From the NCBI GenBank assembly GCA_037444305.1, contig JBBIMP010000023.1, forward strand, positions 2,798 through 66,797: DNA of 64,000 nucleotides. Direction: 5' to 3'. Below, one piece after another: positions 10,153-59,829 of the stretch. Source of the DNA: Acidobacteriota bacterium. Its GTDB lineage: Bacteria > Acidobacteriota > UBA6911. Position numbers and translations under genes: made by a program. The notes below the pieces were generated by a model, which was given only the letters and a program-made list of their open reading frames with translations, searched no databases and was not told the DNA's origin. The first letter of the stretch is position 1; each line of letters begins with the position of its first letter.

Positions 10153-10162
10153 GGGCCGCCCC

Positions 10163-11311: not shown

Positions 11312-11331
11312 GGGGCTTCTCCGGCAGCGAC

Positions 11332-12291
11332 TCAGCTTCCGCTGCGCAGCTCCTGTGCGATTTCGCGGGCGATGAGGCGCGCTTTTTCCAGTTCCTCCGG
11401 GGCAAGCGATATCGCGCCCACGACAGGGTGTCCTCCGCCCCCGTGGCGTTCGCACAAGGCCGCGAGGTTGTGCATGCGCGGCCGCGGCGCCCAGGGATTG
11501 GAGCCTACCGAGATCTTGGCGCGATAAGAGGAAAGGCTCACGCCCACGCAGTAGACCGCCCGGGGAAACAGGTAGTAGGGTATGAACTTGTTGTACCCCT
11601 CCATGTCGTTTCCGCTCACGTCGAAAAAGATGGTGCCGTCGGCGCACTGCGACCGTTCGCGAATGATGTCGATGGACCGGAGGTGGCGTTCGTGCAGCGG
11701 CCGGAAAGCCGCCTGCACCCAGCCGAGCTCGGCGACCTCCCGGAGAGGCCGCCTCTGAAACTCCTCGATGAGCCGGTGAGTTCCCGCCGGCTTGCGCATC
11801 CCCTCGATCACCATCATGAGCCTCATGGCCGGCTCCTTCAGCTCCACGGCCGCCTCCGCGCTCTCGAAGAGCGCGCCGTCGATGATGTCGGCCCAGCGAA
11901 TGAGCTCGTCCATCCTCCCGGGATCGAAATCAAACCTGCCGCGCACCGTGTCCGCGATGAACTTGGTGCAGGAGCCGTAGCCGGCGTCGTGGAATTTTCT
12001 TCCGCTCCTGTCCGCGCGGAAGTGCGCCTCGTCTTCGGCGCTGAGGAAGGCGCTCTGGTGATGGTCGAACCACCAGTGAAGCCGCGGATCGCTGGAGTAC
12101 TTGAAGTCGACAATCGCATTCACGTCGCCTTCGAAGCGTACGTCGAGGAACAGCTCTCCCGCGCGGTGCGCCAGCCCTTCGTAGATCACCTCCGCATTGG
12201 GCTCGAAGCGGTTTTTGAAGAAATCGGTGAAGACGGCCGCAGAAGCCAGCCCGTCGAAGCAATTGTCGTGAAAAAAGACCCTCAGTTTCAT
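11332..12291 (-). CDS. DHH/DHHA1-family phosphoesterase (NrnA/RecJ-core-like)
   Basis: FHDNCFDGLAS (DHH motif I) and GGGGHPVVGA (DHHA1 GGGH). I take the internal ATG at 12291. Confidence 0.55.
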   Translation of the reverse strand: MKLRVFFHDNCFDGLASAAVFTDFFKNRFEPNAEVIYEGLAHRAGELFLDVRFEGDVNAIVDFKYSSDPRLHWWFDHHQSAFLSAEDEAHFRADRSGRKFHDAGYGSCTKFIADTVRGRFDFDPGRMDELIRWADIIDGALFESAEAAVELKEPAMRLMMVIEGMRKPAGTHRLIEEFQRRPLREVAELGWVQAAFRPLHERHLRSIDIIRERSQCADGTIFFDVSGNDMEGYNKFIPYYLFPRAVYCVGVSLSSYRAKISVGSNPWAPRPRMHNLAALCERHGGGGHPVVGAISLAPEELEKARLIAREIAQELRSGS

Positions 12292-12440: not shown

Positions 12441-13619
12441 CTAGCGGGACAGGATCAGCTTGGCAATCGTCTGCAGCTGCATGTTCGACGTCCCTTCGTA
12501 AATCTTGCCGATCATCGCATCGCGGTAGTATTTCTCCACCGGGTATTCCCTCGTGTAGCCGTACCCGCCGAAGATCTCGATCGCGAGGCCGGTGACGCGC
12601 GCCGCTGCCTGGGAGGAATAGTACTTGGCCATCGCTGCCTCCCGGACGAAGTTCTTCCCGGCCATCTTCATCCTCGCGGCGTTGTAGACCATCAGCCTGG
12701 CCGCCTCCACCTCGGTCGCTGCCTTTGCCAGGTCGAACTGCACCCCCTGGAAGCTCGCGATGGGCTTGCCGAACTGCACGCGTTCATTGGCATAACGCAG
12801 CGCGTGATCCAGGGCGCCCTGGGCCACGCCCACCATCTGCGCGCCAATCCCGATGCGGCCCTCGTTCAGCGTTTCGATCGAAACCTTGTAGCCCTTCCCC
12901 ACCTCCCCCAGCACCCTTTCTGCGGGCAGGAAGCAGTCCTCCAGGATCAGCTCGCAGGTGGAGCTGGCCCGGATCCCCAGCTTGTCCTCCTTCTTTCCCA
13001 CGCTGAATCCCGCGTCCTCCCGCTCGACGATAAACGCGGTGATTCCCCTGTAACCCTTCTCCGGGTCGGCATTGGCAAACACGATGAAGATTCGCGCTTC
13101 GCCCGCGTTCGTGATCCACAGCTTCTGTCCGTTCAGGACGAAGCCTCCGTCCTTTTTCTCGGCCCTGGCGGCGAGCGCAAAGGCGTCGCTGCCCGACCCG
13201 GCCTCGGACAGGGCGTAGGCGCCCACGGTGTCGCTGCACAGGCGCGGCAGATACTCCCGCTTCTGCTCCTCCGTGCCCCAGCAGAGAATGGCGTTGTTCA
13301 CCAGCGTGTTCTGCACATCCACGATGACCGCCGCCGAGGCATCGACCCGGGAGAGCTCCTCCACCGCCTGACACGCCATGAAAAAGCTGCCGCCGGCGCC
13401 GCCGTATTGCTCGGGGATGGCCACGCCCATCAGTCCGAGTTCGAACATCTGACGCAGCAGCCCTGCATCCATCCTGGCCTCCAGGTCCATCCTGGAAACG
13501 TGAGGGCCGATCTGCTCCTCCGCGAATCCCGCAACCGTCGATTTGAACAGCTCCTCCTCCTCGGACAGGAGCGTCAGGGGGAAGCGGGCGCCTGTGAGAT
13601 TTCCGGTTTCCTCGTGCAT
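12441..13619 (-). CDS. Acyl-CoA dehydrogenase
   Basis: Full-length ACAD pattern: YALSEAGSGSDA ... KLWITN ... QIFGGYGY ... YEGTSNMQ. I take the internal ATG at 13619. Confidence 0.9.
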   Translation of the reverse strand: MHEETGNLTGARFPLTLLSEEEELFKSTVAGFAEEQIGPHVSRMDLEARMDAGLLRQMFELGLMGVAIPEQYGGAGGSFFMACQAVEELSRVDASAAVIVDVQNTLVNNAILCWGTEEQKREYLPRLCSDTVGAYALSEAGSGSDAFALAARAEKKDGGFVLNGQKLWITNAGEARIFIVFANADPEKGYRGITAFIVEREDAGFSVGKKEDKLGIRASSTCELILEDCFLPAERVLGEVGKGYKVSIETLNEGRIGIGAQMVGVAQGALDHALRYANERVQFGKPIASFQGVQFDLAKAATEVEAARLMVYNAARMKMAGKNFVREAAMAKYYSSQAAARVTGLAIEIFGGYGYTREYPVEKYYRDAMIGKIYEGTSNMQLQTIAKLILSR

Positions 13620-13795
13620 GAATGTGAACCTCCGATCGTTTGATGTAAGAAGACCCGAACGTTTATAACACCAGCCTGCCGGGAACATCCAGCCCCAGAA
13701 GCGGCAAGACGGCTGCTGCCAGCCCCTCCTGTCCCGGCCCCGGATCCTCCTCCATCCTTTGCCGAATCAGGTAATTGTAAGAATGCGGGTCTCGT

Positions 13796-22506: not shown

Positions 22507-23103
22507 CTACTCGATGACAACCGGTCCGCTTGCCTGCGCCGGCCGACGATGGAAGCCGACAGTCTCTTCGTAGGCCGCCGCTATCGCGGCCGCTGAAACC
22601 GGGATCGTGATCAGGAGGCCGACGCCCAGGAGCAGCAGCCCGACGAAATTGAGCAGCAGGAGGAGGACCGCGAAGAGCATGTATCCCAGGAGATCCTTGA
22701 GCACCAGCTTTCTGCTCGCCTCCATCGCGTCCCAGAAGGGCAGGTTCCGGTCCTCGAGGAAAATGTAGGAGAAGAGATAGAGGGCGGTGACGATCAGCGC
22801 GGGAAACACGCAAAGGACCAGGCCCGCCAGAGTGAAGGCCGCCACCAGGATATGGACCAGGAAGGCATCCACGAACTTGCCGAATCCGGCAAAAAGGTCC
22901 ATCAGGTCGGTGCGACCCTCAAGCATCCGGCGCCTCACGGCCAGGAACATCCCTGAGGCGAGCGGCCCCGCCACCACGAACGCCCCGACGCTCACGAGCG
23001 CAACGGCCACCAGCGCGATGAGCACGAAGTTGCCGATGTCCGCTTTCACAATCCGCCAGCCCATCCCGATCCACCGTCCCGGCGTCACGGCTGCGTTGAC
23101 CAT
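22507..23103 (-). CDS. Integral membrane protein of unknown function (4-5 TM)
   Basis: Hydrophobic helices throughout. I recognise no catalytic motif. Confidence 0.45.
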   Translation of the reverse strand: MVNAAVTPGRWIGMGWRIVKADIGNFVLIALVAVALVSVGAFVVAGPLASGMFLAVRRRMLEGRTDLMDLFAGFGKFVDAFLVHILVAAFTLAGLVLCVFPALIVTALYLFSYIFLEDRNLPFWDAMEASRKLVLKDLLGYMLFAVLLLLLNFVGLLLLGVGLLITIPVSAAAIAAAYEETVGFHRRPAQASGPVVIE

Positions 23104-27891: not shown

Positions 27892-28206
27892 GTGGGCAGC
27901 CGCCGGTTCATCGTGGAGTCGGACAGAGGGCTGGAGATGGTGATTCACGTGCAGCCGCGGGCGCATCGGACGGAATGTGCCGGTCTGCACGGGAGCGCAC
28001 TGAAGCTCCGCATCGCTGCGCCGCCCGTGGCTGATGCGGCAAACCGGGCGCTCCTGGAGTTCATCGCCGAGCGGCTGGGCATCGCCCGCGCCCGCGTCCG
28101 CATACTCGTCGGAGAGAAATCGCGCACGAAGAAGATTGCCCTTAAGGGGATGGGGCTGGCGGAGTTTGTGTCGAAAGTTCCGGGTGCAGACCACTTCAAC
28201 GGATGA
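27892..28206 (+). CDS. DUF167/YggU-family protein
   Basis: A ~100-aa protein immediately after yggS (the conserved yggS-yggU pairing), with a GTG start and a KLRIAAPPVADAANRAL core. Confidence 0.6.
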   Translation: MGSRRFIVESDRGLEMVIHVQPRAHRTECAGLHGSALKLRIAAPPVADAANRALLEFIAERLGIARARVRILVGEKSRTKKIALKGMGLAEFVSKVPGADHFNG

Positions 28207-28229
28207 TCGGAGGTCGGAGTCATTCAACC

Positions 28230-28907
28230 ATGCAGACGGAAAAATATCTCAAAGGCAGCCACCTGGGGGCCGGGCTCAACCCAACGGAGCTCGCCGCGCT
28301 CACGGCGATCGCCCGCACGAAGACCGTGACCAAGGGATCGATCCTCTTCATGGAAGGGGAAAAGGCCGAGGGTCTTTTCGTCCTGTTGAAGGGGATGCTC
28401 CGGATCTACAAGTCGGCTGCGTCGGGCAGGGAATATACGATCCACAGGATTCAGCCCGGGCAGATGTTCGCCGAGGCGGCCGTGTTTCACGTCGGCCGTT
28501 TTCCGGCCAACTGCGCCGCCCTGGAGGATTCCCTCGTCGCCTTTTTCCCCAAGGAGCGGTTCGCCGCGCTCATCGAGAAATCCCCGCAGATCTCGCTGAA
28601 AATCATCGCATCTCTCTCCAGGTTTCTGCGCGACTACAACCAGCAGGTGGAGAACCTCTCGCTGAAGGAAGTTCCCGCCCGCATCGCCTCCTACCTGCTG
28701 CGCGAATCCGAACGGCTCGATTCGCCGAGCATCGACCTGGAGATATCCAAGGCGGAACTGGCCAGGGGGCTGGGCACCATCAGCGAGACTTTTTCCCGCT
28801 CGCTGAAAAAACTCAAGGAGCTGCGGGTGATCAAGGTGGACCGCAACCGGATCACCATCCTGGATGAAGACCGCCTGGCCGACATCGCAGACGGTGAAAA
28901 AAGCTGA
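28230..28907 (+). CDS. Crp/Fnr-family transcriptional regulator
   Basis: A cNMP-binding beta-roll (ILFMEGEKAEGLFVLLKGMLRI) and a C-terminal HTH (ISKAELARGLGTISETFSRSLKKL). Start is either the ATG at 28230 or the one at 28203. Confidence 0.8.
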   Translation: MQTEKYLKGSHLGAGLNPTELAALTAIARTKTVTKGSILFMEGEKAEGLFVLLKGMLRIYKSAASGREYTIHRIQPGQMFAEAAVFHVGRFPANCAALEDSLVAFFPKERFAALIEKSPQISLKIIASLSRFLRDYNQQVENLSLKEVPARIASYLLRESERLDSPSIDLEISKAELARGLGTISETFSRSLKKLKELRVIKVDRNRITILDEDRLADIADGEKS

Positions 28908-28990
28908 CCCTTGACGCAAGTCAAGGAATCCGCATTTGCCGTCCGGTATCGTTGGAGCCGAAAGCTGGACTCAACGAAAAGGAGCGAGGT

Positions 28991-29743
28991 ATGCCGGTAC
29001 GGAACATCATTCACATCGACGAGGAAAAGTGCGACGGCTGCGGATTGTGCGTCCCCTCCTGCGCGGAAGGCGCCATCCAGATCGTCAACGGCAAGGCAAA
29101 ACTCGTGAACGAGGTGTATTGCGACGGCCTGGGCGCCTGCCTCGGCGAGTGCCCGCAGGATGCCATCCGCATGGAGCAGAGGCGGGCGCCGGAGTTCGAT
29201 CCGCACGCGGTCGAGGCGCATCTCGCCGCGCTGTCGGCCAAACAGGCGCCGGCTCCTCCGAAACCGCTGTTTTCATCGCCTCATCCCGCCGGCTGCCCCG
29301 GTTCGATGTCGCAGGTGTTGCAGCCCACGGCAAACCCTTGCGCGGCCCCGGCGGCGACGGCGCAGCCGCCCTCGAGGCTCGGCAACTGGCCGCTGCAGTT
29401 GCACCTGGTGCCGGTGCAGGCCCCGTTCTATGAGAATGCGGATCTGCTCATCGCGGCCGACTGCGCCCCGTTCGCCTACGCGGGTTTCCACGACGAGTTC
29501 ATCAAGGGAAAGACGGTGATGATCGGCTGCCCGAAGCTGGATGACGCCGGCGCCTACGTGGAAAAGCTGACGCAGATTTTCGCCGGCAACAGCATAAGAT
29601 CGGTCGAGATTGCCTTCATGGAAGTGCCCTGCTGTTTCGGGCTGGTCCGGCTGGTGCAGGAGGCAGTCGCCGGTTCGGGGAAGAGCATCCCGGTGAATCT
29701 GGCCAAGCTCGGCATCCGCGGCGGCATCGCGCAGCGCGGGTAG
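28991..29743 (+). CDS. 4Fe-4S dicluster-domain protein with a Cys-containing C-terminal domain of unknown function
   Basis: CDGCGLCVPSC and CDGLGACLGECP cluster motifs. The RBS AAAGGAG precedes the ATG at 28991, inside ORF 28952..29743. Confidence 0.65.
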   Translation: MPVRNIIHIDEEKCDGCGLCVPSCAEGAIQIVNGKAKLVNEVYCDGLGACLGECPQDAIRMEQRRAPEFDPHAVEAHLAALSAKQAPAPPKPLFSSPHPAGCPGSMSQVLQPTANPCAAPAATAQPPSRLGNWPLQLHLVPVQAPFYENADLLIAADCAPFAYAGFHDEFIKGKTVMIGCPKLDDAGAYVEKLTQIFAGNSIRSVEIAFMEVPCCFGLVRLVQEAVAGSGKSIPVNLAKLGIRGGIAQRG

Positions 29744-29854: not shown

Positions 29855-31894
29855 TCACTGCCTGCGGGCGAACGAATCCTGCGGCAGGCGGAGGCTCTCG
29901 AGCGTCAGCGTCGCGATATCCACCACCCGGATCCGCTCATCCAGATCGCGCAGTTTGACCGAATCCTCCAGCATCTGCTTGCAGTAGGCACACGAGGTGA
30001 CAATCGTGTCCGCCCCCTGTGCCTGCGCCTGGTCCACCCTGAGGTTGTTGATCCTCTCCCCGGCCTTCAGGTCCATCCAGAAATGTCCGCCGCCGCCGCC
30101 GCAGCACAGGCTCCGGGACCGGGCGTTCTTCATCTCCGCCACGTTCACGCCGGGAATGGCCCGGAGCACCTCCCTCGGGCTGTCGTAGATCTTCTGAAAG
30201 CGCCCCAGGTAGCACGGATCGTGATACACCGCCTTCTGCGCCGGCAGACCGACCGGCCGCAGGTGATCGCTCCAGAGCATCTCGTGCAGGTACTCCGTGT
30301 GGTGCACCACGCGGTAGTTTCCGCCGAATTGCGGGTATTCATGCGCCAGGACGTTGAAACAGTGCGGGCAGGCGGTCAGGAGCACCTGGAAACGGCGGCG
30401 GTTGAGCAGTTCGATCTGGCTCCTGGCCACTTCCTGAAACAGCGACTCGTCCCCCAGCAGCCGCGCAGGATCCCCGCAGCATCGCTCGTCCGCCCCGAGT
30501 ACGCCGAAGCGGATCCCGGTGGCCTGCAGCAGGCGGCAGAGGTCCTGGGCAATCTGCTGCTTCGTGGGATCGAACGTGGTGCAGCAGCCGATCCACAGCA
30601 GCACATCGATCGACTCCCCCTCGCCGATGACCGGGATCCCCATTTTTTCGATCCACGCCATGCGCTCCCCTTGCGGCCCGAAGGGATTGCCGAGCTGGCC
30701 GAGCATCTTCAGCATGCGGGCGGCATCGACCGGAACCGAGCCTCCCATCATGGTCTGGTGCCGGCGCAGGTCGACGACCGTGTCGAGGTGCTCGACCCGC
30801 GCCGGACAGACCTCCTGGCAGGCGCCGCAGGTGCGACAGTACCAGATCAGGTCGCCGTCGATGGCGCCGCCCACGACCTGACGGGGCGCGCCGGCGCCAT
30901 TCCCGTTCCCCCTTCCGGCTTCGCTGCGCACGAAGGCCTTCAGCTCGGAGATCAGCGCGCGCGGCGAGAGCGGCTGCCTCGCCTGCCGCGAAGGGCAGAC
31001 GTCGTCGCAGCGGCCGCACTCGACGCACCCGTCGAAGCCCAGCCTTTCCCGCCAGGTGAAGTCGGCTGCGGTGGCGATGCCGATCTGCAGCGCCGCTTCG
31101 TCGATGTCCTCCGCCGCCATAAGCGCGGCTACATCCGGCCGCGCGAGGCTGCCCCAGGCCTCGGTCTTCTGCAGTGCCACGTTGGCCGGGATCAGCACCA
31201 TGTGCAGCAGCTTGGTGTAGGGGATCAAGGCGATGAAGCCGAGCGCCATGACGCAGTGGGTCCACCAGACAAAGGCGTGAAGCGCGCGCCCGGCGTCTGC
31301 CCCCAAACCTGAAAACAAAAGCGAAAAGGCAGAGCCCACCGGGGACCACGCTGCCCACGGATCGCCAGCCACCCTGATGCGGAGCCCTTCGACCAGGAAT
31401 CCGCTCAGGAGAATCCCCGCGAGCAGCGCCAGCACCAGGTGATCCGCCGCGCGCGTGGGTAGCGTCGCCGGCCGGGCGATCGTGCGGCGGTAGAGGGCGA
31501 TGCCGATCCCCACCAGCGCCAGCAATCCCGCGATATCGGCCGCGAGCGAAAACACCAGGTAAAGGGTGCCCCGGAAGAGCGACGTGCCCAGGTCCATGTC
31601 CAACATCACCAGCAGCGTCGTCAGGAACATCACCGCAAAGGCATAGAAGATGAGACCGTGAAACAGCGCCGGCAGGCGCTCGCGCCCGACTCCCCGCTGC
31701 AGCAGAATCTCCTTGAGCATTGCCATGAGGCGCGCGCCGGGAGCCGACGTGCGATCTACGGGACGGCCGATCTGCCACTGCCTGTATCTCCGCCGGATCC
31801 CGAGGCCGAACACCACCGCGGTCGCGCCCAGCAGCGCGTACATGATCCAGATGAAGCTGACGTTCCAGCCGAGTTCTCGATGGGCTTCCACCAT
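29855..31894 (-). CDS. Fused NarI-like dihaem cytochrome b membrane domain plus HdrD-like Fe-S/CCG-domain oxidoreductase (DsrMK/HdrED-type)
   Basis: An N-terminal ~300 aa with five or more TM helices and conserved His residues. Then CVECGRCDDVCP and CRTCGACQEVCP (two 4Fe-4S sites). Then two CCG modules (WIGCCTTFDP ... CPHCFN and CCGGGGGHFW ... CAYCKQ). I take the ATG at ~31894 inside ORF 29855..31975. Confidence 0.7.
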   Translation of the reverse strand: MVEAHRELGWNVSFIWIMYALLGATAVVFGLGIRRRYRQWQIGRPVDRTSAPGARLMAMLKEILLQRGVGRERLPALFHGLIFYAFAVMFLTTLLVMLDMDLGTSLFRGTLYLVFSLAADIAGLLALVGIGIALYRRTIARPATLPTRAADHLVLALLAGILLSGFLVEGLRIRVAGDPWAAWSPVGSAFSLLFSGLGADAGRALHAFVWWTHCVMALGFIALIPYTKLLHMVLIPANVALQKTEAWGSLARPDVAALMAAEDIDEAALQIGIATAADFTWRERLGFDGCVECGRCDDVCPSRQARQPLSPRALISELKAFVRSEAGRGNGNGAGAPRQVVGGAIDGDLIWYCRTCGACQEVCPARVEHLDTVVDLRRHQTMMGGSVPVDAARMLKMLGQLGNPFGPQGERMAWIEKMGIPVIGEGESIDVLLWIGCCTTFDPTKQQIAQDLCRLLQATGIRFGVLGADERCCGDPARLLGDESLFQEVARSQIELLNRRRFQVLLTACPHCFNVLAHEYPQFGGNYRVVHHTEYLHEMLWSDHLRPVGLPAQKAVYHDPCYLGRFQKIYDSPREVLRAIPGVNVAEMKNARSRSLCCGGGGGHFWMDLKAGERINNLRVDQAQAQGADTIVTSCAYCKQMLEDSVKLRDLDERIRVVDIATLTLESLRLPQDSFARRQ

Positions 31895-31898
31895 GGGA

Positions 31899-32393
31899 TT
31901 ACACTCCTGTCGAATGCCGTGCGGGCAGAGCGGCGGCCGGCAGCACGACCTGGGGCAACGGCTCGGCAAACACACTCACCGGCGCATCGGCCGGCACAGT
32001 CACCTCCCGGCCGTGCCCGACGCCGGAAGGCGTGCGCCGGTAGTGGCTGCGCACCTTCTGCGAGACAACATCCCAGAGTTCCGTCGCCGCCACCAGCTTT
32101 GCTCCGCGCAGGTCCAGAAGCGCCAACAGCGGCCGCAGCGCTGCCATGGACCTCGACAGGCAGCCGCATCGGTCGACCAGGAACGAGCTCCAGGGCCCCT
32201 CGAACCGCAGGGCCGCTCGCAGCCCCGTGCGGTCCATCAACGAACACTCCCGCGCCTCGTCCTCAAACCAGGCGATGATCTCGATTCCCTGCTGCCGGGC
32301 GTATTCCTCGATCCGGCGCCGCTGGTCGGCGCAGCACACCTCGCCGGATCCGGTGCAAGACGATATCGGGCTCACATATGCAATGGCCTTCAT
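31899..32393 (-). CDS. Small Cys-rich protein with a resolvase-N-terminal-like (flavodoxin-like) fold; paralog A1
   Basis: MKAIAYV ... VCCADQ ... LVDRCGCLSRS ... AATELWD. About 35-40% identical to the upstream paralog. Internal ATG at 32393 inside ORF 31899..32408. Confidence 0.5.
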   Translation of the reverse strand: MKAIAYVSPISSCTGSGEVCCADQRRRIEEYARQQGIEIIAWFEDEARECSLMDRTGLRAALRFEGPWSSFLVDRCGCLSRSMAALRPLLALLDLRGAKLVAATELWDVVSQKVRSHYRRTPSGVGHGREVTVPADAPVSVFAEPLPQVVLPAAALPARHSTGV

Positions 32394-32447
32394 GCCTCCT
32401 CCCTCCACGATGGTCAGGGGCGCGTTCCATCCGCGCCCCCGGCGGTT

Positions 32448-32927
32448 TCACAGGCCGGTCGGCTGCCGTACCAGAGCGGCGAAGTTGAGGCGGGCGGGCC
32501 GCTTCATTCCGATCCGATCCCGCACGGGCACGATCTGCGTGATCACGCAGGTCGGCGGCCGCAGCGCACCTTTGTGGAAGTGCCGCACCTGCTGCGAGAG
32601 GCAGTCCCACAGCTCGGTGGCCGACTGCAGCGCGACATTCTTTTCCTGCAACGCCTCCAGCAGCGGCCTCACCTCCGACAGGGACCTGCTGAAGCACCAG
32701 ATACGCTCCACCAGGATGAGGTCGTAGGAATCCGGGTGCGCCAGCATCGCCTTGACACCTGGACGCTCCACCACCGGCCCGTGGCAACCGTCATCTTCAA
32801 ACCGCGCCACGATCTCTATGCCGTGTGTCTTGGCGTACAGCTCAATCTGCTCGCGCTGCTCCTCGCAACAGATTTCGATATCGGTGTTGGGGATTCGAAT
32901 GCAGTTCACATAGGTGATGGCTTTCAT
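32448..32927 (-). CDS. Small Cys-rich protein with a resolvase-N-terminal-like (flavodoxin-like) fold; paralog A2
   Basis: MKAITYV ... ICCEEQ ... LVERIWCFSRS ... SATELWD. RBS AAGGAG 7 nt before the ATG at 32927 (inside ORF 32448..32972). Confidence 0.5.
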   Translation of the reverse strand: MKAITYVNCIRIPNTDIEICCEEQREQIELYAKTHGIEIVARFEDDGCHGPVVERPGVKAMLAHPDSYDLILVERIWCFSRSLSEVRPLLEALQEKNVALQSATELWDCLSQQVRHFHKGALRPPTCVITQIVPVRDRIGMKRPARLNFAALVRQPTGL

Positions 32928-32967
32928 CTTCTGTCTCCTTTTAGGGCTCGGTCCCCTCGCCTGCAAT

Positions 32968-32983
32968 AGCACGCTCCGTGCCA
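32968..32983 (-). promoter_or_regulatory. Candidate sigma-54 (-24/-12) promoter: TGGCACGGAGCGTGCT
   Basis: On the minus strand, the GG and GC elements have exactly the consensus spacing. It lies ~40 nt upstream of the A2 ATG and immediately downstream of a GAFTGA-type bEBP gene. Confidence 0.45.
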
Positions 32984-33312
32984 GGCCCCGGGCCGCAAGC
33001 TATCACTATGTTTTCAAATGGTTTATGACCGATCGATCCGCGGACAGGCCGTTGCGTCCCATGGCGTGAGTGTAAGAAAACCTTGCGGCGAGCCGGACAA
33101 AAGGGCCGAACCGAGGACGCAAATCACTATTAATGAATGGTATGCAGGCAGCAGCGGCCCGCTGTAAGGATTTCTTGCATCGTATTCGGCGCTGCGGGAA
33201 TGGCGCGCCAGAAACAAAAGAAATGCAATGATTTGCAGTCCCGGATAGTCCCGCGCAAATAAAACTATCGCCTCTGCGGGATCCGGCAGCAGGATCCCCG
33301 GCGCCTGCACTA

Positions 33313-34677
33313 TCAGTCGAGGCCGTGTTTTTTCAGCTTGCTGTGCAGGCCGACGCGGGAGCAGCCGAGTATTCTCGCGGCGGCGGTGCGGTTGCCGGAG
33401 GTGTGGTCCAGAACCCGGATAATGTGCTCGCGCTCCAGTTCCGAGAGCGTCTTGAACCCATGGGCGCCGGCGGGAAGACGGGAACCGTTCAGCCCGGCAG
33501 TGACCGCCGGGGGGAGCGACCTCCGGGTGAGCGCACGCTTTTTTTCGAGCACAACGGCGGAGGCGATGATGTTCTCCAGTTCCCGGACGTTTCCCGGATA
33601 GTCGTAACGCTCCAGGATCTCGAGCACGTCGTCTTCTATGTATTCGATCCGCCTGTCGTTCCTCCGGCAGTGCCGGTCGAGGAAGAAATAGGCCAGCAGG
33701 TCCACATCCCCCTTCCGCTCCCTGAGCGGCGGGAGGTGGATGGAACTGATGTTGAGCCGGTAATAAAGGTCGAGGCGAAATCCGCCCGCCTCGATCATCG
33801 CCGGCAGGTCCCGGTTGGTAGTGGCGATGACCCTCACGTCCACGCCCCGCCGCTGCGTCGATCCCACGTGAAAGAACTCCCCCTCCTGCAGAACCCGCAG
33901 GAGCTTTGCTTGGTTGACCGCCTCCAGGTCGCCGATCTCGTCCAAGAAGAGCGTGCCGCCATCCGCTTCCTCGAAGAAGCCGGTTTTCTGCCGGTGGGCG
34001 CCCGTGAACGCGCCCCTCTCGTGGCCGAAGAACTCGGAGGCGAACAGGTCGGCCGCGTGCTCCGCCATATTGACCGCAATGAAGGGCCCGGCAGCGCGAG
34101 GACTGGCGCGGTGGATGGCGTGCGCCACCAGCTCCTTTCCGGTTCCGCTCTCCCCCTGGATGAGAACGTTGTTGCCGCTCCGCGCGATCTGCTCCAGCCT
34201 TCCGAGGATGCGAAGCAGGGCCGGATCGCGCGTGACGATTCCGTGGAAGCCGGCCTCGTGTCTCAGCTTTTCCTGGGCAATCTCCCCCCGCAGCCGGGAG
34301 ACCTGGCCGCGGAGACGGCTGTGCTCCAATGCGCGTTCCATGGAGGTCAGGAGCCGGTTTTTGTCCACGGGCTTGCAGATGTAGTCGTAGGCTCCCAGCT
34401 TCATGGCATCGACCGCGAGCGAAACGTCCTCCACCCCGGTAATCACGATCACCCCCAGGTCATGTTTCTCGCGGACGTACCGGAGAATGTCCCGGCCCGT
34501 GACCGTGGGCATATCCATGTCCAGGAGGATCAGGTCGAAATCACCGCCGTCAATCACACTGAAGGCGCGGCTGCTGTCCTGGAGCGTCTCCACTTCGAAG
34601 CGGCCGTCCTGGGCGAAGAACACGAGGAAGTGGTTCAGGACGGCCTCGTTGTCGTCGATGATGAGGATGCGGTTCAC
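33313..34677 (-). CDS. Sigma-54-dependent response regulator (NtrC/AtoC family): REC, AAA+ and Fis-type HTH domains
   Basis: ILIIDDNE ... LLDMDMP (REC), GESGTGKE, GAFTGA, a C-terminal HTH (AAARILGCSRVGLHSKLKK). GTG start at 34677, overlapping the kinase stop (GTGA). Confidence 0.85.
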   Translation of the reverse strand: MNRILIIDDNEAVLNHFLVFFAQDGRFEVETLQDSSRAFSVIDGGDFDLILLDMDMPTVTGRDILRYVREKHDLGVIVITGVEDVSLAVDAMKLGAYDYICKPVDKNRLLTSMERALEHSRLRGQVSRLRGEIAQEKLRHEAGFHGIVTRDPALLRILGRLEQIARSGNNVLIQGESGTGKELVAHAIHRASPRAAGPFIAVNMAEHAADLFASEFFGHERGAFTGAHRQKTGFFEEADGGTLFLDEIGDLEAVNQAKLLRVLQEGEFFHVGSTQRRGVDVRVIATTNRDLPAMIEAGGFRLDLYYRLNISSIHLPPLRERKGDVDLLAYFFLDRHCRRNDRRIEYIEDDVLEILERYDYPGNVRELENIIASAVVLEKKRALTRRSLPPAVTAGLNGSRLPAGAHGFKTLSELEREHIIRVLDHTSGNRTAAARILGCSRVGLHSKLKKHGLD

Positions 34678-36140
34678 GTAGCCCTCCCGCCGATGGGGAA
34701 TATGTAACGAAAGGTCGCGCCCTTGCCCTGCGAGCTGTCCACCTCGATCCGGCCGCCGTGCTGTTGCACGATGCCGTAGGTGATCGACAGGCCCAGCCCT
34801 GTCCCGCCCGCGCGTTGCCGGGTCGTGAAAAACGGATCGAAAAGCCGGGCCTGAGCCGCTTCGTCGATTCCCGGGCCGTTGTCCTTGATGGCCACCCACA
34901 CCTTGGGCGGAAAGGTGACAGCGCGCGTCGTGATCTCGATGGCCGGGTCGGGGGAGCCGGCGAGCGCGTCCGCGGCATTGATCAGCGTGTTCACGATGAC
35001 CTGGCCGATGCGGTTGGCGCTCCCCTTGAAGGTCGGCAGCCGTGGATCCAGGTCTTCGACGACGCGGAAGTGCTTGATGCGGTTGTGCACTAGGCGCCTC
35101 GACGATTCGATCACAGCGTTGAGGTCGACATCGTCCTCCAGCAACCCTTCGTCCCGCCGGGCGAAGATCCTGAGATCGCGGACGATGTCGCGGATGCGCG
35201 TCACGCCGTCGACCATATCGTCCAGCAGCGCCGGGGCGTGCTTGCGGAAGAAAGGATACTTCAGCCGCGCGACCGTCAGCTCCGGGTTGCGCCCGGCCTC
35301 TTCGTCCAGCAGCGGAAGGATGTCGTCGAAGCTCTCGCGCACTATCTGCATGTTGCCGCCGATGAACTGCACCGGGTTGTTGATCTCGTGCGCTATGCCG
35401 GAGACGAGCTGCCCGAGCGAGGCCAGCTTCTCCGACTGGATGAGCTGGCTCTGCTGGTTGAGCAGCTCGTCGTTGGCGCGGCGCAGCTCGTGGGACTTGG
35501 CATCGAGCAGGTCCCAGGCTTCCACCAGCTCCTGCTCGCGCCTGCGCAGGCTGGTGACGATCGAGGTTGTGATCCAGATGGTGACGAACAAGGTGACGAA
35601 AAAGACCAGGGCCACTGTCCCGATGAAGCGGACGTCCTGGTGCCGGGGAACCGGGTGGAGCGCACGCAGGTTCACGTGCGGGAGCACCTCGTGGTACTCC
35701 AGCAGGACAACCCCCATGAACATGCCGAACGCCACCAGGCCGAAGGCGTAGACCTCGGCCCGCGACAGCAGGATGCTGCTGATGATGGCGTGGAAGAGGT
35801 AGAAGAACAGAAGAGGATTTTCGATCCCCCCGGCGAAGTGGATGAGCAGGCTCAGGGCCAGCGTGTCCAGGTAGGTCTGCAGGATGGCCTCGGTTCGATT
35901 GGTGCCGGAACTCCTCCCTCCGCGGGCCTTCTGCCGCCGGTGCCCGAAGAAGAAAACCGTGTTGTAAAGGCCGATCACCGCGGCCACTGTGAGTGTGCCC
36001 GCGCGGGAGAAACTCACCCCCAGGAGATCGTGAGCGAAGAAGATCGAGGCTGCCAAGCCGGCCAGGAAGACCCAGCGGATGTTGACGAACCACCAGAGGC
36101 GGAATTTGAGTTCTTCTTCTCTGAGCGATCGACTCGACAT
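34674..36140 (-). CDS. Sensor histidine kinase with a multi-TM N-terminal sensor domain
   Basis: HisKA (SGIAHEINNP) and HATPase_c (DNGPGID ... GTGLGLSI). The start is at 36140 or at 36176. Confidence 0.8.
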   Translation of the reverse strand: MSSRSLREEELKFRLWWFVNIRWVFLAGLAASIFFAHDLLGVSFSRAGTLTVAAVIGLYNTVFFFGHRRQKARGGRSSGTNRTEAILQTYLDTLALSLLIHFAGGIENPLLFFYLFHAIISSILLSRAEVYAFGLVAFGMFMGVVLLEYHEVLPHVNLRALHPVPRHQDVRFIGTVALVFFVTLFVTIWITTSIVTSLRRREQELVEAWDLLDAKSHELRRANDELLNQQSQLIQSEKLASLGQLVSGIAHEINNPVQFIGGNMQIVRESFDDILPLLDEEAGRNPELTVARLKYPFFRKHAPALLDDMVDGVTRIRDIVRDLRIFARRDEGLLEDDVDLNAVIESSRRLVHNRIKHFRVVEDLDPRLPTFKGSANRIGQVIVNTLINAADALAGSPDPAIEITTRAVTFPPKVWVAIKDNGPGIDEAAQARLFDPFFTTRQRAGGTGLGLSITYGIVQQHGGRIEVDSSQGKGATFRYIFPIGGRAT

Positions 36141-36362: not shown

Positions 36363-37043
36363 CTAGGCAAGCATCCGCTCCCGGGCCAACCGGCGGCCGG
36401 TTGCGGTATGGAGCTTCTTTTCAATAAGGCTTTCCCGTGCAGGCCGGTCGAGCAAAGATCTGCGCTGCAGCAACTTGAACAGGTTCACCGCATCCCGGAC
36501 GATCCTTCCATCCGCCTCGGCCGAACCGTTCGACTCGCCGCCGCCCGACAGGATATGGCAGACCCGGTCGATCACTTCCCCCTCGGTTCCCAGCTCCAGC
36601 AAAACGGCGCACGCCTCTTCCTCGGATCCCGGTTCCGCAAGGTTCGCCAGCATCGCCGCGGCAATCACCACCTTGGGCTCGCCGCCCTCCTCCGAGTTGA
36701 TCTCTTCGGCCAGCTCGGCAATCTCCAGGCACTGCTGCAGCCGGTCATTCTCGGGTTTTAACGACCTGCGCACGACCGCCAATAGCCGGTCGCGATACAG
36801 CGCGCTCAGATTCTCTCCTTCGAACATCTCGGGCATGCAGGTTTCGGCGTACTTGCAGTACTCCAGGCAGCCCAGGTTGCGCTTGGGATTCAAAAAGCGG
36901 TGGCCGCACCTGCAGGTGCGCTTGGCGTCATCCTTCCAGAATTCGACCGGCTTGCCGCAACTGGGGCACTTGACGTCGTAGATGTCGTCCGGCTTCCAGA
37001 ACATGGTGTTCTGTCCCGGACAGCGGAGATCGTTCTGGCTCAC
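36363..37043 (-). CDS. Cys-rich (zinc-ribbon-like, 8 Cys) N-terminal domain protein with a degenerate HD-like C-terminal region
   Basis: CPSCGKP ... CRCGH ... GCLEYCKYAETC. It is co-oriented with, and ~190 nt upstream of, the kinase gene. Confidence 0.4.
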   Translation of the reverse strand: MSQNDLRCPGQNTMFWKPDDIYDVKCPSCGKPVEFWKDDAKRTCRCGHRFLNPKRNLGCLEYCKYAETCMPEMFEGENLSALYRDRLLAVVRRSLKPENDRLQQCLEIAELAEEINSEEGGEPKVVIAAAMLANLAEPGSEEEACAVLLELGTEGEVIDRVCHILSGGGESNGSAEADGRIVRDAVNLFKLLQRRSLLDRPARESLIEKKLHTATGRRLARERMLA

Positions 37044-42764: not shown

Positions 42765-43634
42765 TCAGCGGATGGTTTTCGGTTGCCTGTCGCGGCGAAA
42801 TCCCTGAAATTCGTAGGTGATGCCCATCGCGAGTCCGGTATCGGGATCGTAGCGTTTCAGCCCGGCGATGCCGGCGAGGTCCCATCGGAGCCCGCCCGAC
42901 CGGATGCGCACTCCCAGCCGGATCCTCGACTGGTTTTCGTTGCCGACGCGTTCCGCACCCTGCCGCCCGTTGATTTCCCCCACAAGGTCTACCCTGGAAT
43001 GCAGCGGAACGGCCAGGCCAAAGCCATAGGTCAGCAGATCTGCCTGCGTGTTGGCCTGCACGGGCGATCCGAGGATGGCAATTCCGACGTTTCCGAGAAG
43101 TTGCGCCGGGCCAAGATGCTTCGAGGCCAGGATGCTGCCATAGAACGCCATCTCGTCGGTGCCCAGACCGCTCTCGTTGCCTGCGTTCGGGAGCTGCACC
43201 GCGAATTTGAAGGCCAGGGCGGGCTTTCTGCCCGTCTCCCGGGCCAGTCTGAGCTTCGCGGCGAGCAGAAGATCGCCAAAGTCGCTGGTGGCGTTGCCGT
43301 CGAAATCGGGCTTGATGACCGGGATTGTCCTGCGCGTCACCGAAAGAAAATCCCTGACGGTCCCCGATATCTGGAACTCCGCGTACTCCCCGACCCCTAT
43401 GTGGATCCCGCCGACTCCCAGGCGCGTGAGGTCGCCTTCCAGGCCGGACAGCGAGTATCGCTGGTTCTGGAAAAACTCCACGCCCATCTGCAGCCGGATC
43501 CGGCCGACGGGCAGCAGTTCGGCCGCGTCGGTTGCGAGGGGGCGTTCCTGTGAGTGGAGGGGCACAGCCAGGAACAGCAGGAAAACTGCGGCCGGCAAAG
43601 ATTTGTACACCGGTGAGCACCTCGGAACCATCAA
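42765..43634 (-). CDS. Secreted putative outer-membrane beta-barrel protein of unknown function
   Basis: A signal peptide, alternating amphipathic beta-strand patterning, and an aromatic near the C-terminus. Confidence 0.4.
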   Translation of the reverse strand: MMVPRCSPVYKSLPAAVFLLFLAVPLHSQERPLATDAAELLPVGRIRLQMGVEFFQNQRYSLSGLEGDLTRLGVGGIHIGVGEYAEFQISGTVRDFLSVTRRTIPVIKPDFDGNATSDFGDLLLAAKLRLARETGRKPALAFKFAVQLPNAGNESGLGTDEMAFYGSILASKHLGPAQLLGNVGIAILGSPVQANTQADLLTYGFGLAVPLHSRVDLVGEINGRQGAERVGNENQSRIRLGVRIRSGGLRWDLAGIAGLKRYDPDTGLAMGITYEFQGFRRDRQPKTIR

Positions 43635-55370: not shown

Positions 55371-55534
55371 GGCCGCTCCGTGCTGAATCCCGAAAGCATA
55401 GTACAGATGCCCCGGCGGAACCAGCAATGCCGCGCCCGGAGGGGGCAAACCATCCTTGCGCCTGCGCGCCAAGTAAGCGAGAATGGCAACCGGCTGCACC
55501 GGACTCAAAAACCGCACTTCTACGGGAGATTCGC

Positions 55535-59680: not shown

Positions 59681-59829
59681 ACAAGCGCTTCAAGCAGGCG
59701 GCCATTCCGTGCAGATCGCTTCGCGGCGTAATTCAATGCGCCGCCGCCGGTGCTCCCTTTGTGTTATGATTTGCGCGTGTTTGAATGGGATGAAGATAAA
59801 CCAACGGTTCCCCCGCAAAACCAGACCTA

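What the first reader, a model, noticed from the sequence alone, without database searches (positions are those of the whole stretch)
29855..36140. Putative sigma-54 / two-component-controlled redox module: kinase and NtrC-type regulator, a -24/-12 promoter, two Cys-rich recombinase-fold proteins, and a fused DsrMK/HdrED-like membrane oxidoreductase
All six elements are co-oriented on the minus strand in a logical regulatory order.
- A multi-TM sensor kinase (36140 down to 34674) is followed by a GAFTGA bacterial enhancer-binding protein (34677 down to 33313).
- A 340-bp intergenic region then carries TGGCACGGAGCGTGCT, which has exact -24/-12 spacing.
- Downstream are two paralogous ~160-aa Cys-rich proteins and a ~680-aa protein that fuses a NarI/DsrM-like haem-b membrane domain to an HdrD/DsrK-like domain with two 4Fe-4S sites and two CCG modules.

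I do not know of a described system that combines a resolvase-fold Cys-rich duo with a fused DsrMK-like enzyme under a dedicated sigma-54 two-component system. It could be a novel respiratory or thiol-disulfide electron-transfer module.
Basis: partly seen in the sequence, partly recalled or inferred. Interest (0 to 1): 0.8.

Follow-up and report, generated by a model that had tools for sequence, protein, structure and literature searches.

The report
Dead-recombinase proteins partner EMO-like oxidoreductase
A sigma-54/two-component-controlled operon encodes a membrane haem/iron-sulfur enzyme of the recently solved EMO/EtfD type, but the genes for its usual electron donor (ETF) are replaced by one or two catalytically dead recombinase-fold proteins. 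A cysteine in those proteins co-varies with an extra cysteine beside the enzyme's outermost iron-sulfur cluster, which points to an undescribed quinone-linked protein-thiol module.

Summary
All six elements are on the minus strand at essentially the stated coordinates.

**What the parts are**
- The ~680-aa protein is an EMO/EtfD-type enzyme: E=2.9e-94 to PDB 9OJN, five TM segments, three haem His, two cubane motifs and two CCG motifs. "DsrMK/HdrED-like" is right for architecture only.
- They belong to a rare family of about 70 clusters among 1.84 billion representatives.

**Conservation**
- Kinase, enhancer-binding protein, small protein(s) and EMO-like enzyme recur together in MAGs labelled Myxococcales, Bdellovibrio, Bradymonadales, Acidobacteriota and "Deltaproteobacteria".
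- A -24/-12 element precedes the first small gene in nearly all loci.

**Key new result**
- In all 28 loci where the enzyme carries an extra Cys (WIGC-C) beside the distal non-cubane cluster, a small protein with Cys109 (W-D-C) sits upstream.
- Close relatives without that Cys have etfBA/acyl-CoA dehydrogenase genes instead, or no partner gene.
- Two small-linked enzymes lack both cysteines.

**Reading**
The small protein most likely replaces ETF as a thiol-based cytoplasmic partner. This is inferred, not shown. No description was found in the literature.

The parts
34674..36140 (-). Sensor histidine kinase. It has a multi-TM N-terminal sensor region with no large periplasmic domain, then HisKA and HATPase_c.
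   Evidence: - Pfam HisKA 5.6e-08, HATPase_c 2.6e-23, weak 6TM_PilS.
- Weak match of residues 22-202 to the RegB/PrrB/ActS TM region, and AtoS-like core, all below NCBIfam cut-offs.
- Hydropathy segments.
- Full-length homologues (33-37% identity) lie next to the module in L001, L012, L018, L022-L024.
33313..34677 (-). NtrC/AtoC-type sigma-54 enhancer-binding response regulator (REC, AAA+ with GAFTGA, Fis-type HTH). Its start overlaps the kinase stop by 4 nt.
   Evidence: - Pfam Sigma54_activat 2.3e-64, Response_reg 4e-24, HTH_8 2.9e-12.
- Best NCBIfam model is AtoC at 408.8 bits, below the 714 cut-off.
- GAFTGA is visible in the translation.
- The HTH recognition helix differs from that of regulators in related loci.
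32928..33312 (-). Regulatory intergenic region. A candidate activator site, TGCAAATCATTGCA, lies at 33237-33224, about 250 nt upstream of the -24 element.
   Evidence: - The palindrome is unique in the window.
- No Rfam family and no sigma-70-like promoter.
- The family-typical TGTAT-N9-ATACA site is absent here.
32968..32983 (-). Sigma-54 -24/-12 promoter-like element TGGCACGGAGCGTGCT.
   Evidence: - Single occurrence in 64 kb, with 0.10 expected.
- Equivalent elements at -48 to -126 in 22 of 24 related loci. Sixteen of 24 score >=18, a score reached by 6% of background 400-nt chunks.
32448..32927 (-). Small protein A (159 aa), a catalytically dead serine-recombinase catalytic-domain protein. 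It carries Cys109 (W-D-C-L-S-Q) and the C-terminal motif K-R-P-A-R-L-N-F-A-A-L.
   Evidence: - Pfam Resolvase 1.3e-12.
- AF2 pLDDT 89.8.
- Family conservation and loss of Ser10, R8, D67 and R68.
- Tail motif.
- Cys109 co-varies with the enzyme's extra Cys.
31899..32393 (-). Small protein B (164 aa), a paralogue of A (42% identity). It lacks Cys109 (W-D-V-V-S-Q) and lacks the C-terminal motif.
   Evidence: - Pfam Resolvase 9.9e-07.
- Alignment.
- Motif table.
29855..31894 (-). EMO/EtfD/HdrDE-type membrane oxidoreductase (679 aa).
- NarI-like 5-TM haem-b domain with His79, His213 and His231.
- Two CX2CX2CX3CP cubane motifs, at residues 290 and 353.
- Two complete CCG motifs.
- His511 in C-P-H-C.
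- Extra Cys438 after cluster ligand Cys437.
   Evidence: - Pfam CCG 1.3e-32, Nitrate_red_gam 4.9e-08, Fer4 dicluster.
- PDB 9OJN_A E=2.9e-94, with the His residues aligned.
- Motif table.
- Hydropathy and motifs.
- Papers.

Best explanation
**Step 1: regulation (strongly supported by sequence comparison, not shown experimentally).**
- A membrane-embedded histidine kinase phosphorylates an NtrC/AtoC-type enhancer-binding protein.
- That protein binds upstream sites in the 385-bp intergenic region and activates sigma-54 RNA polymerase at TGGCAC-N5-GTGCT.
- The result is one transcript: small A, small B, membrane enzyme.

**Step 2: the enzyme (well supported).**
- It is a member of the EMO/EtfD/HdrDE architecture.
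- A NarI-like five-helix haem-b domain exchanges electrons with the (mena)quinone pool.
- Two cubane and two non-cubane Fe-S clusters wire that domain to the cytoplasmic surface.

**Step 3: the partner (inferred from gene order and co-variation only).**
- In this clade the usual cytoplasmic partner, electron-transferring flavoprotein EtfAB, has been replaced by a domesticated, catalytically dead serine-recombinase domain protein. In the window this is A, probably as a heterodimer with B.
- Small A docks at the distal non-cubane cluster (FeS4), the site where ETF delivers electrons in EMO and where the heterodisulfide binds in Hdr.
- Its Cys109 then reacts with the clade-specific extra Cys438 that follows a cluster ligand.
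- The enzyme would thereby couple the quinone pool to the thiol/disulfide state of the small protein. In principle this resembles DsrK acting on DsrC, or ferredoxin:thioredoxin reductase acting on thioredoxin.

**Open points.**
- I cannot tell whether the small protein is a redox carrier for a downstream process or a redox-switched regulator feeding back on the sigma-54 system.
- The recurring link of the wider family to acyl-CoA/ETF genes suggests the physiological theme is fatty-acid or acyl-CoA oxidation.
For: **Regulation**
- The domains are complete and GAFTGA is present.
- The -24/-12 element is unique in the window.
- It is conserved in position in 22 of 24 related loci.
- A conserved activator-type palindrome, TGTAT-N9-ATACA, occurs upstream of the first small gene in 21 of 22 related loci, in 2-3 copies in 18 of them. 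Background is 5%.
- Kinase and regulator are adjacent in most loci.

**Enzyme**
- E=2.9e-94 to the solved M. smegmatis EtfD.
- The three haem His align with SaEMO H87/H233/H251 in spacing.
- The His of C-P-H-C caps FeS3 as in EMOs.

**Partner replacement**
- The small gene(s) occupy the position directly upstream of the enzyme that etfB-etfA occupy in relatives.
- Extra Cys (GC-C) is present in 27 related loci plus the window. All of these have an adjacent small protein, and in all at least one small carries W-D-C.
- Relatives lacking the extra Cys, at 47-53% identity and nested at three or more places inside the same neighbour-joining clade, are either ETF/ACAD-linked (P0195, P0207, L045) or have no partner gene.
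- The only two small-linked enzymes without the extra Cys (L027, L047) have small proteins that also lack Cys109.
- The window enzyme keeps all ten Hdr-type Cys ligands, so FeS4 could be a complete Hdr-like cluster. The two solved EMOs each lack one.
- Natural two-copy and three-copy fusions imply that small proteins act as oligomers, with a single C-terminal docking motif per oligomer.
Against: - No physical interaction was tested, and no complex prediction was possible with the tools.
- Cys109 is not family-wide (54%). It also occurs in members not next to an enzyme: L025, REC-fused forms, and the triple fusion.
- The small family tracks the sigma-54 regulator even where no enzyme is adjacent. 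In Syntrophales L023/L024 it precedes a CoA-transferase and an acyl-CoA dehydrogenase.
- Some members are fused to receiver domains. That fits a signalling or regulatory role at least as well.
- The small proteins show no known cofactor-binding motif.
- The co-variation counts are not phylogenetically independent, and the tree is a rough NJ tree.
- ETF genes may exist elsewhere in the genome. Only 64 kb was seen, and it contains none.
- The window's regulator has a different recognition helix and lacks the family-typical upstream site. Its link to this promoter therefore rests on adjacency and the promoter type alone.
Confidence: 0.45

Rival explanations
1. The small proteins are regulatory components of the sigma-54 circuit, for example a feedback inhibitor or co-factor of the enhancer-binding protein, analogous to PspA acting on PspF, or a phospho-relay output. 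The membrane enzyme is an ordinary ETF:menaquinone oxidoreductase that uses EtfAB encoded elsewhere. The Cys pair, if meaningful, would let the enzyme report quinone-pool redox state to the regulator.
For: - A small gene is always the first gene behind the sigma-54 promoter and stays next to the kinase/regulator when the enzyme is absent (L023-L024). The triple fusion in L031 also lies next to the regulator.
- Receiver-domain fusions exist directly after kinase and regulator genes.
- In L027 the same upstream motif, TATGCACC, precedes both the REC-small operon and the small-enzyme operon.
- The family context is acyl-CoA/ETF metabolism, so ETF is available in at least some hosts.
Against: - It does not explain why etfBA and small genes are mutually exclusive directly upstream of closely related enzymes.
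- It does not explain why the enzyme's extra Cys beside FeS4 appears exactly when the small protein with Cys109 is present.
- The core domain is acidic to neutral (median pI 6.1) and has no DNA-binding domain.
Confidence: 0.3
2. The small proteins are dedicated maturation or assembly factors, such as cluster or haem insertion chaperones, for this clade's modified distal Fe-S site. They are needed only during biogenesis.
For: - Tight operon linkage and Cys co-variation with a residue adjacent to a cluster ligand.
- The clade has an unusual 11-Cys arrangement.
Against: - The EMO paper reports that the non-cubane domain assembles in E. coli without auxiliary genes.
- Small-family members also occur without any enzyme nearby and as receiver fusions.
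- A single Cys is a poor cluster carrier.
Confidence: 0.1
3. The small genes are decaying remnants of a resolvase or mobile element that happen to lie upstream of an EMO gene, and the sigma-54 match is chance.
For: - Pfam hits are to the Resolvase N-terminal domain only, and catalytic residues are lost.
Against: - The family is conserved at 30-45% identity across several phyla, with about 20 near-invariant positions.
- The fold prediction is confident.
- Gene order and promoter are conserved.
- The window is a housekeeping region (pdxA, holB, dnaK operon, rml genes) with no mobile-element genes.
- The promoter pattern is expected 0.10 times per window.
Confidence: 0.02

Closest known systems
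EMO / EtfD: ETF:(methyl)menaquinone oxidoreductase. Examples are Syntrophus aciditrophicus SaEMO (bioRxiv 10.64898/2026.08.18.745454) and Mycobacterium EtfD/Rv0338c (PDB 9OJN; PMC13083937, PMC8593149).
   Same: - Single polypeptide with a NarI-like 5-TM haem-b domain, an HdrC-like domain with two cubane clusters, and an HdrB-like non-cubane-cluster domain.
- The three TM His ligands are conserved.
- The His in C-P-H-C/G that caps FeS3 is conserved.
- 36-53% identity to ETF-linked homologues, and E=2.9e-94 to 9OJN.
   Different: - No etfBA or acyl-CoA dehydrogenase genes lie beside it. Dead-recombinase genes take their place.
- All ten Hdr-type Cys ligands are retained, whereas MsEMO has Cys to Thr and SaEMO has Cys to Gly at the distal cluster.
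- There is an additional Cys438.
- It has dedicated sigma-54 two-component control.
DsrMK with DsrC, and HdrDE (membrane heterodisulfide reductases)
   Same: - A quinone/phenazine-linked b-haem subunit plus a CCG-domain catalytic subunit.
- In the Dsr case, a small cytoplasmic protein with a reactive Cys is the substrate. The proposed role of small A is analogous.
   Different: - Here the subunits are fused.
- NCBIfam DsrK scores only 34.5 bits against a cut-off of 400.
- FeS3 is His-capped as in EMOs.
- The small protein is unrelated to DsrC in fold, and its Cys sits at the start of a helix in the core domain, not on a C-terminal arm.
Small and large serine recombinases (gamma-delta/Tn3 resolvase, TP901-1, Bxb1 integrases)
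   Same: - Several scaffold residues are retained: Y6, the R-P-G loop, the R71 equivalent, and the D-x-x-S motif before helix E.
   Different: - Nucleophile Ser10 is replaced by Ile/Val, R8 is lost, D67 becomes Trp, and R68 becomes Ala/Cys/Ser.
- There is no HTH or recombinase/zinc domain.
- The genes are chromosomal, in non-mobile context, and co-transcribed with a redox enzyme.
- A new C-terminal motif is present: [KR]-P-x-x-[LFM]-x-F.
AtoSC / NtrBC-type sigma-54 two-component systems
   Same: - Kinase plus REC-AAA+-HTH activator with GAFTGA.
- A -24/-12 promoter and upstream palindromic sites.
- AtoC and AtoS are the best or near-best NCBIfam matches, and AtoSC also controls short-chain acyl-CoA metabolism (established knowledge).
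   Different: - Scores are below every equivalog cut-off.
- The sensor region is a multi-TM domain of unknown ligand.
- The target operon is different.

Membership tests
EMO/EtfD (ETF:menaquinone oxidoreductase) | NarI-like membrane domain with five TM helices and the three conserved His (SaEMO H87, H233, H251) | tested here: met
   - Five hydrophobic segments.
- His79, His213 and His231 have the same 18-residue spacing between the last two.
- They align to the MsEMO His residues and are conserved in 117 homologues.
EMO/EtfD (ETF:menaquinone oxidoreductase) | [quoted passage not shown] | tested here: met
   - CVECGRCDDVCP at residue 290 and CRTCGACQEVCP at residue 353.
- DERCCGDP, SLCCGGGG and TACPHCFN.
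- Pfam CCG 1.3e-32.
EMO/EtfD (ETF:menaquinone oxidoreductase) | Distal cluster deviates from Hdr by loss of one Cys ligand (Thr in MsEMO, Gly in SaEMO) | tested here: not met
   The window protein keeps Cys at both positions (CCG and CPHC) and has an extra Cys438. This feature may not be general: ETF-linked P0260 also has CCG.
EMO/EtfD (ETF:menaquinone oxidoreductase) | Genomic and functional coupling to EtfAB and acyl-CoA dehydrogenases | tested here: not met
   - No EtfA or EtfB homologue in the 64-kb window. One ACAD lies about 16 kb away.
- Small genes occupy the upstream position. ETF-linked relatives are shown.
- ETF elsewhere in the genome is not excluded.
EMO/EtfD (ETF:menaquinone oxidoreductase) | ETF-dependent reduction of haems and menaquinone | not testable with these tools
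   Needs purified protein.
DsrMK / HdrDE | Passes the curated DsrK (or related TfrB, TmcB, HmcF) family model | tested here: not met
   NCBIfam DsrK 34.5 bits against a cut-off of 400, TfrB 155.8 against 385, TmcB 57.1 against 735.
DsrMK / HdrDE | Both non-cubane sites open for a disulfide substrate, with no His cap | tested here: not met
   The C-P-H-C His is present as in EMOs. Solvent access cannot be judged without a structure.
Serine recombinase (resolvase/invertase) | Catalytic-domain fold | tested here: met
   - Pfam PF00239 above cut-off for A (48.5 bits) and B (29.4 bits).
Serine recombinase (resolvase/invertase) | Nucleophilic Ser10 with R8, D67, R68 and R71 | tested here: not met
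   Across 61 members, Ser10 is Ile/Val, R8 is variable, D67 is Trp and R68 is Ala/Cys/Ser. Only the R71 equivalent is kept. Residue equivalences were aligned by eye to the gamma-delta sequence recalled from memory.
Serine recombinase (resolvase/invertase) | C-terminal or N-terminal DNA-binding domain and mobile-element context | tested here: not met
   - No further Pfam domain, and a 39-44 aa low-confidence tail.
- Housekeeping neighbourhood.
NtrC-type sigma-54 two-component system | REC + AAA+ (GAFTGA) + HTH_8 activator with cognate kinase and a -24/-12 promoter | tested here: met
   Activity is not testable here.
AtoSC / NtrBC equivalogs | Passes the NCBIfam equivalog cut-off | tested here: not met
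   AtoC 408.8 against 714, NtrC 382.6 against 558.6, AtoS 174.8 against 646.

The most novel reading that the evidence does not exclude
A domesticated, catalytically dead serine-recombinase domain has become a protein-thiol redox partner of a quinone-linked Hdr/EMO-type enzyme, and has repeatedly swapped with ETF during evolution. The enzyme uses a cluster-adjacent cysteine (Cys438) and the distal non-cubane [4Fe-4S] cluster to oxidise or reduce Cys109 of the small protein. This would create a membrane-potential/quinone-coupled protein-thiol switch whose output feeds the same sigma-54 two-component circuit that expresses it. It would be a new use of the recombinase fold and a third chemistry for non-cubane clusters, alongside heterodisulfide cleavage and simple electron transfer from ETF.
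Probability: 0.3. Interest if true: 0.85.

Novelty: new variant of a known kind. Interest (0 to 1): 0.7.

Why it matters
- EMO/EtfD enzymes have only just been characterised structurally. They matter for syntrophic fatty-acid oxidation and as a tuberculosis drug target. Their non-cubane clusters are thought to have lost catalysis and to serve only ETF-to-quinone electron transfer.
- This clade keeps a complete Hdr-like distal cluster, adds a neighbouring cysteine, and trades ETF for an unrelated small protein with a matching cysteine. That gives a natural experiment on how partner specificity and cluster chemistry evolve in this superfamily.
- It would also be a clear case of a serine-recombinase catalytic domain recruited to a non-DNA function.
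- It defines a widespread, previously unannotated sigma-54 regulon in MAGs labelled Myxococcales, Bdellovibrio, Bradymonadales, Acidobacteriota and "Deltaproteobacteria". Current annotation calls these genes "resolvase" and "(Fe-S)-binding protein" or "nitrate reductase gamma subunit".
- The hypothesis is directly testable with two point mutants and a pull-down.

Tried and rejected
- **Conserved cysteines as in DsrC.** Rejected as stated. No Cys is family-wide and none lies in the C-terminal tail. Only Cys109 matters, and only in enzyme-linked members.
- **DNA-binding regulator through a retained resolvase 'arm'.** The C-terminal [KR]-P-x-x-L-x-F motif resembles GRPPKL. However, there is no HTH, the core is acidic (pI about 6), and the motif is missing in a whole subtype. 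This was left as a weak possibility only.
- **Family-typical upstream site in the window.** TGTAT-N9-ATACA is not present even with 2 mismatches. The window's regulator has a different recognition helix. Only a single candidate palindrome was found.
- **Defence system or phage origin.** No PADLOC hits and no mobile genes nearby.
- **RNA element in the long intergenic region.** No Rfam match at E<=0.1.
- **Literature.** The term sets resolvase + DsrMK, resolvase + heterodisulfide reductase + sigma-54, resolvase + DUF224, and domesticated/inactive serine recombinase gave nothing relevant.
- **Neighbouring genes as module parts.** The Crp/Fnr regulator, the 263-aa ferredoxin-domain protein and the 226-aa Zn-ribbon-like ORF have no homologues in any related locus, so they are not counted as parts.
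- **AFDB fold search.** This library was unavailable.
- **Model coordinates.** They are not exposed, so the position of Cys109 on the surface could not be measured.

Full report
**1. What is in the sequence**

The minus strand between 36140 and 29855 carries five co-oriented genes and one long intergenic region.

- The kinase (36140-34674) has several hydrophobic segments followed by HisKA and HATPase_c.
- The regulator (34677-33313) overlaps the kinase stop. It has REC, a sigma-54 AAA+ domain with GAFTGA, and a Fis-type HTH. No NCBIfam equivalog cut-off is reached. AtoC and AtoS are the best or near-best models.
- After 385 bp come small A (32927-32448, 159 aa) and small B (32393-31899, 164 aa, 42% identical to A).
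- Four nucleotides after B's stop comes a 679-aa protein (31894-29855).
- TGGCACGGAGCGTGCT lies at 32983-32968. TGGCAC-N5-KTGCW occurs once in the whole 64 kb on both strands, against 0.10 expected.
- The region has no sigma-70-like promoter match and no Rfam family.
- The window is ordinary chromosome: pdxA, holB, yggS/yggU, rml genes, pepA, hrcA-grpE-dnaK-dnaJ, degP-like, and ribonucleotide reductase. There are no mobile-element genes.
- It corresponds to contig CAZIEJ010000011.1 of MAG GCA_964538715.1.

**2. The membrane enzyme**

Pfam finds a NarI-like segment, a dicluster ferredoxin domain and two CCG domains.

- The only strong solved relative is PDB 9OJN chain A (E=2.9e-94). The cited papers identify this entry as Mycobacterium smegmatis EtfD/EMO.
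- Those papers, with the Syntrophus EMO preprint, define the architecture:
  - five TM helices with three conserved His;
  - an HdrC-like domain with two cubane clusters;
  - an HdrB-like domain with two non-cubane clusters;
  - a His that caps the proximal cluster;
  - a distal cluster that has lost one Cys ligand in each solved example.
- The window protein has five hydrophobic segments. It has His79, His213 and His231 in the aligned positions, two CX2CX2CX3CP motifs, and C-P-H-C with the capping His.
- Unlike the solved EMOs, it keeps both CCG motifs complete.
- It also has a second Cys (Cys438) directly after the first ligand of the distal cluster, in W-I-G-C-C-T-T-F.

The protein is nevertheless far below the DsrK model cut-off and belongs with EMO/EtfD.

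**3. The small proteins**

- Both pass the Pfam Resolvase cut-off.
- With a 47-sequence alignment, AlphaFold2 gives pLDDT 89.8. The beta-alpha core spans residues 1-121 and the tail is low-confidence.
- A profile search of 1.84 billion representatives finds only 71 proteins at E<=1e-10, before the hits fade into true recombinases.
- Near-invariant positions in 61 members are A3, Y6, Q24, E44-D45, R55-P56-G57, E74-R75-x-W77, S80-R81, W107-D108, S111-Q112 and R115.
- The recombinase nucleophile position is Ile/Val. The R8, D67 and R68 equivalents are lost.
- There is no DNA-binding domain. The core is acidic to neutral (median pI 6.1) and the tail is basic.
- About half the family carries a C-terminal motif, [VI]-x-[KR]-P-x-x-[LFM]-x-F-x-x-L. 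Small A has it and small B does not.
- Variants include fused two-copy and three-copy proteins, with the motif only on the last copy, and N-terminal receiver-domain fusions.
- No cysteine is family-wide.

**4. Conservation of the module**

- Searching genomes with the small-protein alignment gave 23 loci. All are MAGs, labelled Myxococcales, Bdellovibrio, Bradymonadales, Acidobacteriota, Syntrophales, Thermodesulfobacteriota and "Deltaproteobacteria".
- In 18 of them one or two small genes sit directly upstream of an EMO-like gene. In most, a kinase and a sigma-54 regulator lie divergently upstream.
- Searching metagenomes with the enzyme gave the reverse test. Of 13 loci at >=47% identity with upstream sequence available, 11 have a small gene upstream. 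None of about 25 loci at <=39% identity does, and 13 of those are followed by an acyl-CoA dehydrogenase.
- A -24/-12-like element (TGGCAC/T-N5-TTGC/A) lies 48-126 nt upstream of the first small gene in 22 of 24 loci. Sixteen reach a score that only 6% of background segments reach.
- A palindrome, TGTAT-N9-ATACA, occurs about 110-130 bp apart upstream of that promoter. It is present in 21 of 22 related loci, in two or three copies in 18 of them, against 5% background.
- The window is the exception. Its kinase and regulator are co-oriented, the palindrome is absent, and the regulator's recognition helix differs. One unique palindrome, TGCAAATCATTGCA at 33224-33237, is a candidate site.

**5. The ETF/small-protein switch and the cysteine pair**

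- Homologues of the enzyme at 36-38% identity sit in acyl-CoA dehydrogenase-etfB-etfA-EMO operons (Eggerthella, Acidobacteria).
- Tabulating the W-I-G-C-x position against gene context gives a sharp pattern:
  - All 27 related loci plus the window in which x is Cys have an adjacent small gene.
  - In every one of these, at least one small protein has Cys109 in W-D-C-x-S-Q.
- Enzymes without that Cys behave differently, even when 47-53% identical to the window protein:
  - P0195 (G-C-Y) follows ACAD-etfB-etfA.
  - P0207 (G-C-L) follows etfBA and two ACADs.
  - L045 (G-C-L) follows etfA.
  - P0204, P0209 and L048 have neither partner.
- The only two small-linked enzymes lacking the extra Cys (L027 with G-C-V, L047 with G-C-A) have small proteins that also lack Cys109.
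- In a rough neighbour-joining tree the ten non-Cys sequences fall at three or more places inside the 67-leaf clade of Cys-bearing enzymes. That suggests repeated correlated switching, though this needs a proper phylogeny.
- According to the cited structures, the extra Cys follows a ligand of the distal cluster FeS4. That cluster receives electrons from ETF in EMO, and it is one of the two catalytic, substrate-binding clusters in Hdr.

**6. Wider family context**

- Where small-family genes are not next to an enzyme they still sit by a sigma-54 regulator and by acyl-CoA genes.
  - In Syntrophales the order is small, CoA-transferase, acyl-CoA dehydrogenase.
  - Receiver-fused members follow kinase and regulator. 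They precede a 585-aa unknown protein and, on one contig, etfB-etfA.
- In L027 the same upstream motif precedes both the REC-small operon and a small-enzyme operon.
- The physiological theme therefore appears to be acyl-CoA oxidation and its electron disposal.

**7. Interpretation**

- **Well supported.** This is a sigma-54/two-component-regulated operon encoding an EMO/EtfD-type quinone-linked Fe-S/haem enzyme together with dead-recombinase proteins. The combination is conserved and apparently undescribed.
- **Inferred.** The small protein has replaced ETF as the cytoplasmic partner and interacts through Cys109 with Cys438 at the distal cluster. The chemistry would resemble DsrK/DsrC or ferredoxin:thioredoxin reductase. 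These two parallels rest on my own knowledge and were not tested here.
- **Main rival.** The small proteins may be regulatory parts of the sigma-54 circuit, with the enzyme using ETF from elsewhere. The receiver fusions and enzyme-free loci favour this reading. The mutual exclusion with etfBA and the cysteine co-variation argue against it as the whole story.
- The two readings can be combined: the enzyme could set the redox state of a regulatory small protein.
- Assembly-factor and pseudogene explanations are unlikely.

**8. Verdict**

I classify it as a new variant of a known kind: an EMO/Hdr-type enzyme with a new partner and dedicated regulation.

Interest is 0.7. A specialist in Hdr/EMO enzymology or in recombinase evolution would find the partner swap and the cysteine pair surprising. 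The hypothesis can be tested with simple mutants.

Noticed in passing
Related loci L001-L024, 100-480 nt upstream of the first small gene (e.g. L015 -455/-344/-238; L023 -316/-194): A palindrome, TGTAT-N9-ATACA, is conserved across MAGs from several phylum-level groups, in 2-3 copies about 110-130 bp apart. It is presumably the binding site of regulators sharing the recognition helix G-M-Q-R-[PT]-N-F-H-A-L-M-R-K. It is absent from the window, whose regulator has a different helix.
   Followed up: yes
L027 10001-12707 (also L028-L030, and the contigs of P0054 and P0032): Receiver-domain fusions of the dead-recombinase domain (about 260-312 aa) lie directly after a kinase and sigma-54 regulator. 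They are always followed by a 584/585-aa soluble protein with no Pfam match. On one contig etfB-etfA follow.
   Followed up: partly
L031 10001-11440 (P0005, 479 aa); P0006 (320 aa): Natural fusions of three and two tandem dead-recombinase domains, with only the last copy carrying the C-terminal K-P-E-R-F-H-F motif. The triple fusion sits divergent from a sigma-54 regulator, 3 kb from a separate small-plus-enzyme pair.
   Followed up: partly
L027 13514-20051 (minus strand): An extended operon: a 350-aa unknown protein, a 683-aa Fer4+CCG protein without a NarI-domain hit, a 154-aa small protein, then a 716-aa EMO-like enzyme. It is flanked by an enoyl-CoA hydratase and an ADP-forming acyl-CoA synthetase. 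The repeated motif ATATTTTTATGCACC is shared with the REC-small promoter region.
   Followed up: partly
L024 2215-2679 and 8763-9227: Two nearly identical copies of a small-family gene (W-D-Y, no Cys109) flank the kinase/regulator pair in a Syntrophales genome. The first copy is followed by a CoA-transferase and an acyl-CoA dehydrogenase instead of an EMO-like gene. In L023 an IS-type transposase sits after the small gene.
   Followed up: partly
L047; P0204, P0205, P0209: A subgroup of the enzyme clade has C-P-H-G instead of C-P-H-C, the same Cys-to-Gly change that gives the [4Fe-5S] cluster in Syntrophus EMO. It also has G-C-A or G-C-V at the extra-Cys position.
   Followed up: no
window 36363-37043 (-): A 226-aa ORF directly upstream of the kinase on the same strand. 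It has an N-terminal Cys-rich zinc-ribbon-like segment (CPG...CPSCGK...CRCGH) and no Pfam family. It has no homologue in any related locus, so it is probably unrelated to the module.
   Followed up: partly
window 28203-29743 (+): A Crp/Fnr-family regulator followed by a 263-aa protein with an N-terminal 2x[4Fe-4S] ferredoxin domain and an uncharacterised C-terminal half. Both converge on the end of the EMO-like gene and are not conserved next to the module elsewhere.
   Followed up: partly
window 10163-11647 (-) and 12441-13688 (-): A receiver-domain-SpoIIE/PP2C phosphatase response regulator, and the only acyl-CoA dehydrogenase in the window. A formiminotransferase-cyclodeaminase (7370-8890) and an amidohydrolase (8887-10335) lie nearby.
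   Followed up: no
window 59277-61610 (+), 54651-55598 (-), 53967-54611 (+), 42765-43634 (-), 22507-23103 (-): Sizeable ORFs with coding-like composition and no Pfam match at E<=1e-6, including one of 777 aa.
   Followed up: no
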